From NCBI RefSeq assembly GCF_056712565.1, contig NZ_CM160072.1: 64,000 bases of DNA. One strand, given 5' to 3'. Below, piece after piece: positions 21,901 to 22,944 of this stretch (positions are counted from its first letter, which is position 1; each line of letters starts with the position of its first letter). A program made the position numbers.

Positions 21901-22944
21901 AGATAATCGCACCAAATCATATATAGCTTGTTGTTTTCGAAATGAAACTCAACATTACCAAATAGCCAGATATAAAAACCATTTCCCATATCATTTTTAG
22001 AGTCCGGCTCAACAAAGTTTTGTTCCAACCATGCCATTGTTTGCCCCAGTTCGACAAAATCGAATTTTCCGTTAAAGACAAAATTGTGGAAGCTAACATC
22101 AACAAGATGGTCAAATTTCATCTTTCGCTCCTTTGTGAATTTTTTACATGCTTCAAAAGCCAGCGTAATTTACATCGGTGCAGGCGACTCTCCAGTGTTG
22201 AGCGAAAATTTGCGATGTCGACATTGGACCGATCTACCGCAGCAACCCCCGTGTATTGTGGGATCGGTGAAGGGATTTTTTGTAACTTTCCCAGCGCCAG
22301 CAGTTGTTGAATGATCCTGCTACCGTCGTGGTAATCATCGTAAATAGCCACTGGCAGAGGCTGCCAGGCGGGGGTCGATTTGATAAATCCGGAAAAAAAA
22401 TACGGGTCCAGATCGCCGAAAGCAAAGCCGTAGGCGAGGGGAACTTCAATATTTTGCTCTGTTTTTTTATTCTCAAATGTACAATGAAAACCGTGAAAAC
22501 AATACTGCCACTTTCCCATTTTGCCTTTTCGCTTACGGTTGCATTTGAAGGGGGCAAAGGTAACTAGCGGGTTATTTTCCGCCATCTCAACGTTCAGTTG
22601 TTCAGCCAATGCAAATATAAGCTCTGTCGCCAGCTTACGATATTCTTTCGCGCAGTGTTCGAAAAAATCCTGATGGCGGTTAATCTCTTCAAGCGATATT
22701 AATCTGGCGATCCTGATAACCGGGTCGGCAGAATGCATGCCAACAACAAATTCATCGAGCTGTGCTTTCAGCACCAGCCCGAATTCCTCACGATACCTCT
22801 CTGCTTCGCTGGCAAAATGCAGATGTAATACCTTCTCTCTCGATGTTTGCCGAAGTAAGGCGATATCCGGTATCTCATCTGCACAAGCGATACTTAATGT
22901 CTCTGTAATCCTTTCCACATCTCATCTTCCGTGTGCATCACTTA

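What the first reader, a model, noticed from the sequence alone, without database searches (positions are those of the whole stretch)
22396..22403. 8-nt homopolymeric A/T tract inside the larger cassette ORF
An A8 run (T8 on the coding strand, encoding the FF of DPYFFSGF) lies within the 266-aa ORF. Tracts of this length can undergo slipped-strand mispairing and would switch the cassette off by frameshift.
Basis: seen in the sequence. Interest (0 to 1): 0.2.

Follow-up and report, generated by a model that had tools for sequence, protein, structure and literature searches.

The report
Ordinary T8 run in an accessory gene
The eight-base A/T run is real and does occasionally slip and truncate the gene in nature, but it is only the DNA spelling of an invariant Tyr-Phe-Phe-Ser motif and behaves like any other 8-base run in E. 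coli, not like a programmed on/off switch.

Summary
The A8 run exists at 22393-22400, 3 nt left of the stated 22396-22403. On the coding (-) strand it reads TAT TTT TTT TCC (YFFS) at codons 173-176 of a 266-aa DUF6896 ORF. That ORF and a 167-aa partner ORF replace the 36-bp ushA-ybaK spacer of K-12.

Runs of this length are no commoner in the window than chance predicts (4 seen, 7.0 expected). FF is invariant in 30 homologues, and three of four distant homologues examined spell it with TTC codons, so the tract is a codon-usage by-product.

Among 765 complete E. coli genomes resolved at this site:
- 760 match a 69-nt A8 query exactly.
- 2 carry A7 (NMEC O18 and N58, one small clade).
- 0 carry A9.

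A control T8 in the housekeeping gene mnmH varies at least as much (8 T7 genomes). In a 15-billion-protein collection, slipped T7/T9 alleles occur on three allele backgrounds. All six long T7 assemblies inspected also under-call neighbouring homopolymers, which marks long-read error.

Verdict: an ordinary frameshift hot spot in a weakly constrained accessory gene. Slippage happens, but there is no evidence of phase variation. The function of the cassette remains unknown.

The parts
22393..22400 (-). The homopolymer: A8 on the + strand, T8 on the coding strand (TAT TTT TTT TCC, YFFS, codons 173-176).
   Evidence: A 69-nt query centred on A8 matches 760 of 765 complete genomes exactly; 2 carry A7 and 0 carry A9.
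22118..22918 (-). 266-aa ORF with a GTG start. It is a DUF6896-family protein with no signal peptide obvious by eye; function unknown.
   Evidence: Pfam PF21837, E 9.5e-14. PGAP annotates the same CDS. There are 61 homologue clusters. The AF2 model has pLDDT 87.6. No solved relative was found.
21618..22121 (-). 167-aa partner ORF. It belongs to no Pfam, NCBIfam, PADLOC or PHROGs family. The predicted fold is a tandem BLIP/BamE-like fold.
22118..22133 (-). Gene junction: the ATGA stop/start overlap (22118-22121), preceded by an AAGGAG Shine-Dalgarno sequence (22128-22133) for the partner ORF.
   Evidence: Sequence read directly.
21581..22941 (.). The 1361-bp segment, 44% G+C, that lies between the convergent ushA stop and the ybaK stop. 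K-12 has a 36-bp spacer here.
   Evidence: K-12 comparison and G+C content. Present in 774 of 5426 complete E. coli genomes, always at this chromosomal site.
21592..21614 (.). A 10-bp perfect inverted repeat (GCGGCGTCAT-GAT-ATGACGCCGC) between the ends of ushA and the partner ORF. It is a probable bidirectional terminator (inference).
   Evidence: Read from the sequence. The consensus terminator scan did not flag it.
41925..41932 (-). Control tract used here: T8 on the + strand (A8 on the coding strand, ...EKKA...) near the 3' end of mnmH/selU.

Best explanation
The T8 run is an incidental consequence of encoding the invariant Tyr-Phe-Phe-Ser/Thr segment of the DUF6896 signature motif G-x-LDPYFF with the A/T-rich codons this gene prefers. 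Like any 8-nt mononucleotide run in E. coli, it is a replication-slippage hot spot. Rare -1 and +1 mutants arise, truncate the protein after residue about 175, and persist in some sub-lineages because this accessory gene is under weak constraint. It is not a maintained, high-frequency, reversible contingency switch.

Shown here: the tract, its coding role, its near-invariance across genomes, the existence of rare slipped alleles, and the behaviour of the control tract. Inferred: that the slipped alleles are neutral or mildly deleterious loss-of-function mutations rather than regulated OFF states.
For: (1) FF (F174, F175), together with G168, L170 and D171, is invariant in 30 homologues down to 37% identity.

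(2) The same peptide is spelled without a run in three homologues: TAT TTC TTC ACC in Leminorella, TAT TTC TTT AGC in Chitinophaga, and TAC TTT TTC TCA in an enterobacterial homologue that also sits downstream of ybaK. It is T8 again only in a 27%-G+C Flavobacterium.

(3) The number of A8/T8 runs in the window is at or below the shuffle expectation, and P(T8|YFFS) is about 0.14 from the gene's own codon usage.

(4) In 765 complete genomes, 760 match the A8 query exactly, 2 carry A7 and 0 carry A9. Every record sequenced across the tract and checked carries A8 apart from those two.

(5) The two A7 genomes, NMEC O18 and N58, are identical over 3068 nt. They belong to an 8-genome clade marked by one ushA SNP, which is compatible with a single recent event.

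(6) The control T8 in mnmH gives 8 T7 genomes against 120 with the same-flank T8, and 0 T9.

(7) All six GenBank complete genomes inspected that carry T7 on the 536-type allele also have the neighbouring intergenic T8 shortened, and three also have a G6 run in ybaK shortened. That is assembly error, not biology.

(8) The tract lies 65% into the ORF, not at the 5' end.

(9) DUF6896 dN/dS is 0.67 against an Escherichia whittamii-type allele, compared with 0.02-0.03 for the flanking genes. This is consistent with weak constraint.

(10) Indel rates rise exponentially with run length in E. coli (PMC8510543).
Against: Slipped alleles are not absent. T7 occurs on two allele backgrounds and T9 on three, on 92, 138, 28, 19 and 4 contigs of the large collection. 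At least one T9 allele sits on an Illumina SPAdes contig that differs from strain 536 by nothing else over 3090 nt.

Within the small O18 clade, 2 of 8 genomes are A7, and N41, N63 and N66 are confirmed A8. So variation does occur among close relatives.

The denominators in the large collection are capped at 1000 contigs per allele, so the true OFF fraction there is unknown. No within-culture read data could be examined, so a low switching rate (for example 1e-6 to 1e-5 per generation) is not excluded.
Confidence: 0.85

Rival explanations
1. This is a genuine, if slow, contingency locus. Reversible T8 to T7/T9 slippage would switch the DUF6896 protein, and by polarity its partner, ON and OFF, and the tract would be kept because the switching is advantageous in ExPEC lineages.
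For: Both -1 and +1 alleles exist on several allele backgrounds. At least some are free of other homopolymer errors. There is ON/OFF heterogeneity inside one 8-genome O18 clade. The T8 is retained between E. coli and the E. whittamii-type allele.
Against: The OFF fraction is 0.26% in complete genomes. The housekeeping control tract varies as much or more. Tracts are not enriched over chance. The tract is not conserved at nucleotide level outside Escherichia even though the peptide is invariant. It lies in mid-gene. The product has no signal peptide obvious by eye and no known family, unlike typical phase-variable surface or restriction-modification genes. T8 retention at 95% nucleotide identity is the default expectation. 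From general knowledge, E. coli is mismatch-repair proficient and has no established SSR-based phase variation.
Confidence: 0.07
2. This is a recoding site. U UUU UUU is a -1 ribosomal-frameshift heptamer in the correct register, or alternatively a transcriptional-slippage site, so one gene would yield two products.
For: TA[T TTT TTT] fits the X XXY YYZ pattern in the zero frame. A 7-bp hairpin, CTGGCAG-CCT-CTGCCAG, lies downstream.
Against: The hairpin starts about 25 nt after the heptamer, too far for a frameshift stimulator by the usual 5-9 nt rule (general knowledge). The region does not fold better than shuffles (z -0.95). The -1 frame ends after 19 codons. Homologues lack the heptamer, so no conserved second product exists.
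Confidence: 0.03
3. All reported length variants at this tract are sequencing or assembly errors, and the tract is effectively invariant in nature.
For: All six (6/6) long assemblies inspected with T7 on the 536-type allele also under-call neighbouring homopolymers. Several frameshifted protein clusters (P0004, P0008, P0013, P0046) carry multiple frame changes. One T9 genome, an older draft whose sequencing platform was not checked, also has a shortened T7 run.
Against: NMEC O18 and N58 are independently sequenced RefSeq genomes. They share A7 with no other indel over 3068 nt, a stretch that contains another A8 run and four 7-nt A/T runs. The T9 allele on an Illumina SPAdes contig has no other difference, and 19 similar places were not shown.
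Confidence: 0.05

Closest known systems
Simple-sequence-repeat contingency loci (poly-G/C or poly-A/T tracts in Neisseria meningitidis, Haemophilus influenzae, Campylobacter jejuni, Helicobacter pylori, Bordetella pertussis; e.g. PMC5084427, PMC1891110, PMC3025981, seen)
   Same: A mononucleotide run inside an ORF whose +/-1 slippage shifts the frame and truncates the product. Both -1 and +1 natural alleles are seen.
   Different: Here more than 99% of genomes are ON. The tract is no more variable than a housekeeping control, is not enriched over chance, is not conserved as DNA among orthologues, lies in mid-gene, and sits in a gene of unknown function with no signal peptide obvious by eye. 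The host is mismatch-repair proficient and is not known for SSR switching (last point from general knowledge).
Listeria monocytogenes inlA 5' poly(A) tract (Orsi, Bowen & Wiedmann 2010, PMC2831843)
   Same: A short A/T homopolymer in a coding region. Natural frameshift alleles arise more than once and truncate the protein.
   Different: The inlA tract sits at the extreme 5' end and gives an 8-aa product. Its variation frequency was measured at about 1000-fold above the point-mutation frequency, and the frameshift alleles are common in certain lineages. Here the tract is at codon 173 of 266 and no rate was measured.
Generic homopolymer indel hot spots in E. coli mutation-accumulation experiments (Foster and colleagues, PMC8510543)
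   Same: Indel rate is an exponential function of run length. 8-9-nt runs (leuPQVT, the glnS promoter) dominate the indel spectrum. This matches T8 being the main frameshift site of this gene: 281 contigs carry T8 slips, against 4 for the one A6-run frameshift allele found.
   Different: None of substance. This is the category the tract belongs to.
DUF6896 (Pfam PF21837) proteins
   Same: The host ORF matches the family model and shares its invariant motifs FFExCA, FHGxHC and GxLDPYFF.
   Different: The family has no known function, no solved structure and no paper in the library. Homologues in Leminorella, Flavobacterium and Chitinophaga lie in unrelated contexts without the 167-aa partner.

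Membership tests
SSR-mediated phase-variable (contingency) locus | Tract length is polymorphic among closely related isolates, with substantial ON and OFF fractions. | tested here: not met
   760 exact A8 matches, 2 A7 and 0 A9 in 765 complete genomes. Within the 8-genome O18 clade, 2 are A7.
SSR-mediated phase-variable (contingency) locus | The tract is more variable than comparable tracts in housekeeping genes of the same genomes. | tested here: not met
   The mnmH T8 control gives 8 T7 genomes, against 120 with the same-flank T8.
SSR-mediated phase-variable (contingency) locus | The repeat is over-represented relative to chance, or maintained at DNA level across orthologues. | tested here: not met
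   4 runs against 6.99 expected. TTC-containing spellings in 3 of 4 distant homologues examined.
SSR-mediated phase-variable (contingency) locus | Heterogeneous tract lengths within a single culture, at a switching rate of about 1e-5 or more per generation. | not testable with these tools
   No read-level data are available.
SSR-mediated phase-variable (contingency) locus | The frameshift abolishes a functional product. | tested here: met
   T7 gives 227 aa and T9 gives 194 aa. Both lose the conserved T182, P187, P189, G199 and I215 region.
Programmed -1 ribosomal frameshift site | A slippery X XXY YYZ heptamer in the zero frame. | tested here: met
   T TTT TTT within TAT TTT TTT.
Programmed -1 ribosomal frameshift site | A stimulatory structure 5-9 nt downstream, plus a conserved alternative-frame product. 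| tested here: not met
   The hairpin is about 25 nt downstream and the fold z-score is -0.95. The -1 frame stops after 19 codons. The heptamer is absent in homologues.
DUF6896 (PF21837) | Match to the family HMM above the gathering score. | tested here: met
   52 bits against a cut-off of 27, E 9.5e-14, residues 87-215.
Known anti-phage defence or phage protein families (PADLOC, PHROGs) | HMM match of either cassette protein. | tested here: not met
   No hit at E<=1 for either protein. tblastn with the 266-aa DUF6896 protein against phages found nothing; the 167-aa partner was not searched there.
Polymorphic-toxin / T6SS immunity proteins (for the 167-aa partner) | Fold similarity to solved immunity proteins, and adjacency to a toxin gene. 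| tested here: inconclusive

The most novel reading that the evidence does not exclude
The ybaK-linked DUF6896/167-aa pair could be an uncharacterised two-gene accessory module of ExPEC-type E. coli, for example an enzyme or binding protein with a BLIP-like inhibitor partner. Its expression would be stochastically and reversibly toggled by T8 to T7/T9 slippage, with OFF variants favoured in particular niches. The neonatal-meningitis O18 lineage that carries T7 would be one such case.
Probability: 0.04. Interest if true: 0.4.

Novelty: already known. Interest (0 to 1): 0.08.

Why it matters
It matters little for the tract itself, which is a textbook slippage-prone run with a textbook low rate of natural frameshift alleles.

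There are two practical lessons. First, an 8-nt A/T run in an E. coli ORF should not be read as a switch without population evidence; a matched control tract (mnmH here) is a cheap way to calibrate. Second, apparent tract-length variants in public "complete" genomes are heavily contaminated by long-read homopolymer under-calling, which can be recognised because neighbouring runs are shortened too.

The host cassette is a minor open question in its own right. It is a DUF6896 protein with an invariant Cys/His motif plus a BLIP-like partner, present in about 14% of complete E. coli genomes and exchanged between Escherichia species.

Tried and rejected
- NCBIfam, PADLOC and PHROGs scans of both cassette proteins gave no hits.
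- Profile searches of both families against PDB sequences gave no hits.
- The afdb50 fold library was unavailable.
- Genomic contexts of DUF6896 homologues in Leminorella, Flavobacterium and Chitinophaga, and of partner homologues, showed no conserved neighbour, toxin or mobile-element gene.
- tblastn of the DUF6896 protein found nothing in phages and only two distant Bacteroidota hits in plasmids.
- The literature search for 'DUF6896' returned zero papers.
- Lee et al. 2012 (PNAS), which holds per-run indel rates, is not in the library, so no numerical slippage rate for 8-nt runs is quoted.
- The promoter/terminator scan found nothing notable between ybaK and the cassette. I considered but could not test co-transcription with ybaK.
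- I first read the abundant truncated protein clusters (P0013 and others) as evidence for frequent switching. I rejected that because they carry several independent frame changes, and because the long assemblies show multi-run under-calling.

Full report
**Observation**

The + strand carries an uninterrupted A8 at 22393-22400. On the - strand the run is T8 within GAC CCG TAT TTT TTT TCC GGA TTT (D-P-Y-F-F-S-G-F). This is codons 173-176 of the 266-aa ORF 22118-22918(-), 65% of the way into the gene. The description is therefore right.

It is not statistically remarkable. The 64-kb window has four A8/T8 runs (18387, 22393, 23479, 41925), against 6.99 +/- 3.6 in dinucleotide-preserving shuffles. 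Given the peptide YFFS and the gene's own codon usage (TTT is 73% of its other Phe codons), a T8 arises with probability about 0.14.

**What the surroundings are**

The window is E. coli. The 1401 nt spanning the cassette are 100% identical to ATCC 11775 and several other strains. The named carriers (UPEC 536, ST131, UM146, BEN2908) are phylogroup B2 ExPEC strains by general knowledge.

Gene order is fsr, ushA (+), then on the - strand ybaP, the ChiX/sroB sRNA locus, ybaK, the 266-aa ORF and a 167-aa ORF. In K-12 the convergent ushA and ybaK stops are separated by a 36-bp hairpin spacer. Here 1361 bp of 44% G+C (21581-22941) take its place.

The two ORFs overlap in ATGA, and the second has an AAGGAG Shine-Dalgarno sequence. 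A 10-bp inverted repeat follows it.

The larger ORF is a DUF6896 protein (PF21837, E 9.5e-14). The smaller matches no curated family.

The cassette is present in 774 of 5426 complete E. coli genomes, always on the chromosome at this site. It also occurs in genomes whose copies the sources label E. whittamii and E. fergusonii. A 59%-identical homologue again lies directly downstream of ybaK in another enterobacterium.

**Is the tract a switch? Population test**

I queried all complete RefSeq E. coli genomes with 68-70-nt probes carrying A7, A8 or A9. At this query length a single difference drops identity below 99%, so the '>=99%' band counts exact matches.
- A8: 760 of 765.
- A7: 2 of 765.
- A9: 0 of 765.

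The common single difference seen with a longer 88-nt probe is a G/T SNP 21 nt from the tract, not a length change. Every locus I fetched, apart from the two A7 genomes, has A8. Nine cassette-bearing genomes were not resolved by the short probes.

The two A7 genomes are NMEC O18 (CP007275) and the CSF isolate N58. They are identical to each other over 3068 nt and have no other indel, although that stretch includes another A8 run and four 7-nt A/T runs. PGAP annotates the same 227-aa truncated protein in both. They share a ushA SNP with only six other complete genomes (APEC O18, MS20655, N31, N41, N63, N66). Of those, N41, N63 and N66 are seen to be A8. This looks like one or two recent, genuine -1 events inside a small O18 clade.

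**Control**

The T8 at 41925-41932 lies in the housekeeping gene mnmH/selU. The same three probes gave 8 exact T7 genomes, 0 exact T9 genomes and 120 exact T8 genomes with the same flanks, among 5389 genomes matched. Two of the T7 genomes, UM146 and BEN5202, have an intact A8 in the cassette. An ordinary gene's 8-nt run is therefore at least as polymorphic as the tract in question.

**Wider collection**

I made exact-sequence look-ups of the products predicted for slipped alleles in a 15-billion-protein collection.

| Allele | Background | Contigs |
|---|---|---|
| T7 | window ('AFGD') | 92 |
| T7 | 536-type ('DFGD') | 138 |
| T9 | 536-type | 28 |
| T9 | EC42405-like | 19 |
| T9 | window | 4 |
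| Intact T8 | P0220 allele | 582 |

So slippage in both directions has been recorded on several backgrounds. It far outnumbers the one other homopolymer frameshift found, at an A6 run (4 contigs). That fits the exponential dependence of indel rate on run length reported for E. coli (PMC8510543).

Much of this signal is artefact. All six GenBank complete genomes returned for the 536-type T7 allele also have the neighbouring intergenic T8 shortened by 1-2 nt. Three also have a G6 run inside ybaK shortened, which destroys that housekeeping gene's frame. These six genomes lie on several different flanking haplotypes. This is the signature of long-read homopolymer under-calling. Several truncated protein clusters likewise contain multiple frame changes.

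By contrast, a T9 allele on an Illumina SPAdes contig differs from strain 536 by that single inserted T over 3090 nt, and 19 similar places were not shown. That one is probably real.

**Why the tract is there**

In an alignment of 30 homologues down to 37% identity, G168, L170, D171, F174 and F175 are invariant, and P172 and Y173 nearly so. GxLDPYFF is the most conserved motif of the family. The DNA spelling varies:

| Homologue | Codons for Y-F-F-S/T | T8 run? |
|---|---|---|
| Leminorella | TAT TTC TTC ACC | no |
| Chitinophaga | TAT TTC TTT AGC | no |
| ybaK-linked enterobacterial homologue | TAC TTT TTC TCA | no |
| Flavobacterium (27% G+C) | TAT TTT TTT TCA | yes |

Selection therefore acts on the peptide, and the run is a codon-usage by-product.

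**Recoding alternative**

T TTT TTT is a formal -1 slippery heptamer in register. However, the only downstream hairpin starts about 25 nt away and the region folds no better than shuffles (z -0.95). The -1 frame ends after 19 codons, and homologues lack the heptamer. I rate this alternative very unlikely.

T7 gives a 227-aa product and T9 a 194-aa product. Both lack the conserved STP..QPLPV..DG..I segment. The slipped frames stop 113 nt (T7) and 213 nt (T9) upstream of the partner ORF's start, so translational coupling is lost. The partner keeps its own strong Shine-Dalgarno sequence, so 'cassette off' is an inference, not a demonstrated outcome.

**What the cassette might be (secondary)**

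The DUF6896 model is confident (pLDDT 87.6). It has no solved relative beyond an IF3-C/SepF-like N-terminal subdomain. Its invariant C89, H142, H145, C146, E158 and D171 suggest a metal or catalytic site; that is inference only.

DUF6896 homologues elsewhere are solitary and in unrelated contexts. Neither protein matches defence or phage libraries.

Against the E. whittamii-type allele, the cassette's dS is 0.07-0.11 while the flanking ybaK and ushA have dS of 0.34-0.62. This implies recent exchange of the cassette between species. DUF6896 dN/dS is 0.67, the partner's is 0.14, and the flanks are 0.02-0.03. That is consistent with weak constraint on the gene that carries the tract, and it explains why occasional frameshift alleles persist.

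**Verdict**

This is an ordinary homopolymer hot spot, not a contingency switch.

The closest known categories are generic homopolymer indel hot spots in E. coli (PMC8510543) and, by analogy only, the Listeria inlA poly(A) tract (PMC2831843) and classical SSR contingency loci. Of the four defining features of those loci that could be tested here, three were not met.

Novelty: already known. Interest: low.

Noticed in passing
window 21581-22941, compared with L015 (E. whittamii-type locus): The two cassette genes are far more similar between E. coli and a divergent Escherichia lineage (dS 0.07-0.11) than the flanking ybaK and ushA are (dS 0.34-0.62). This implies recent inter-species exchange of the cassette at the same chromosomal site. 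DUF6896 dN/dS is 0.67 and the partner's is 0.14.
   Followed up: partly
window 22118-22918 (-): The DUF6896 family has invariant C89, H142, H145, C146, E158 and D171 (motifs FFExCA, FHGxHC, IEVP, GxLDPYFF). The model is confident, but the core has no solved structural relative. A possible metal-binding or catalytic site in a family of unknown function.
   Followed up: partly
window 21618-22121 (-): The 167-aa partner has no Pfam family but about 190 remote relatives. Its predicted fold is a tandem BLIP/BamE-like fold resembling YjgB, YfeY and the T6SS immunity protein TsiN. One relative is fused to DUF4240.
   Followed up: partly
L018 (Logan SRR31479240 contig), 2293-3585: A 59%-identical DUF6896 homologue also lies immediately downstream of ybaK in another enterobacterium. 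The ybaK linkage is therefore older than E. coli B2, and the gene may have been lost from other E. coli lineages rather than recently inserted.
   Followed up: no
window 41925-41932 (mnmH/selU, - strand): Eight complete genomes with the window's flank allele (UM146, BEN5202, APEC E19035, 95-3322, three clonal poultry isolates and GPEC505-623) carry T7 here, which frameshifts the last ~20 codons of tRNA 2-selenouridine synthase.
   Followed up: partly
L020-L025 (GenBank CP164706, CP165460, CP165526, CP163604, CP165286, CP163926): These 'complete' genomes show systematic 1-2-nt under-calls at every long homopolymer in the 3-kb locus, including a G6 run that breaks ybaK. This is a long-read assembly artefact that inflates apparent tract-length polymorphism in public data.
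   Followed up: yes
window 24522-24854 (+) and 24890-25231 (+): A HigB-like toxin ORF (PF05015, E 1e-31) sits just upstream of ybaQ, an HTH antitoxin-like gene. K-12 annotates only ybaQ here, with a 137-bp gap after ybaP. So this strain appears to keep an intact higBA-type pair that K-12 lacks.
   Followed up: partly
window 23543-23626 (+): An Rfam sroB (ChiX/MicM) sRNA lies between ybaK and ybaP (82 bits). The intergenic A8 at 23479-23486 lies about 60 nt upstream of it, near a promoter-like site at 23508-23536.
   Followed up: no
L006 (E. coli WL297, CP128613), 1156-1533: In this strain the partner ORF is annotated as only 125 aa, and the cassette aligns to the window in two pieces. This is a lineage in which the downstream gene, not the DUF6896 gene, is altered.
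   Followed up: no
window 22275-22283 (T6 on + strand; A6 in the coding strand...LQKIP...): A second, rarer natural frameshift allele of the DUF6896 gene (P0223, 4 contigs) maps to this 6-nt run.
   Followed up: partly
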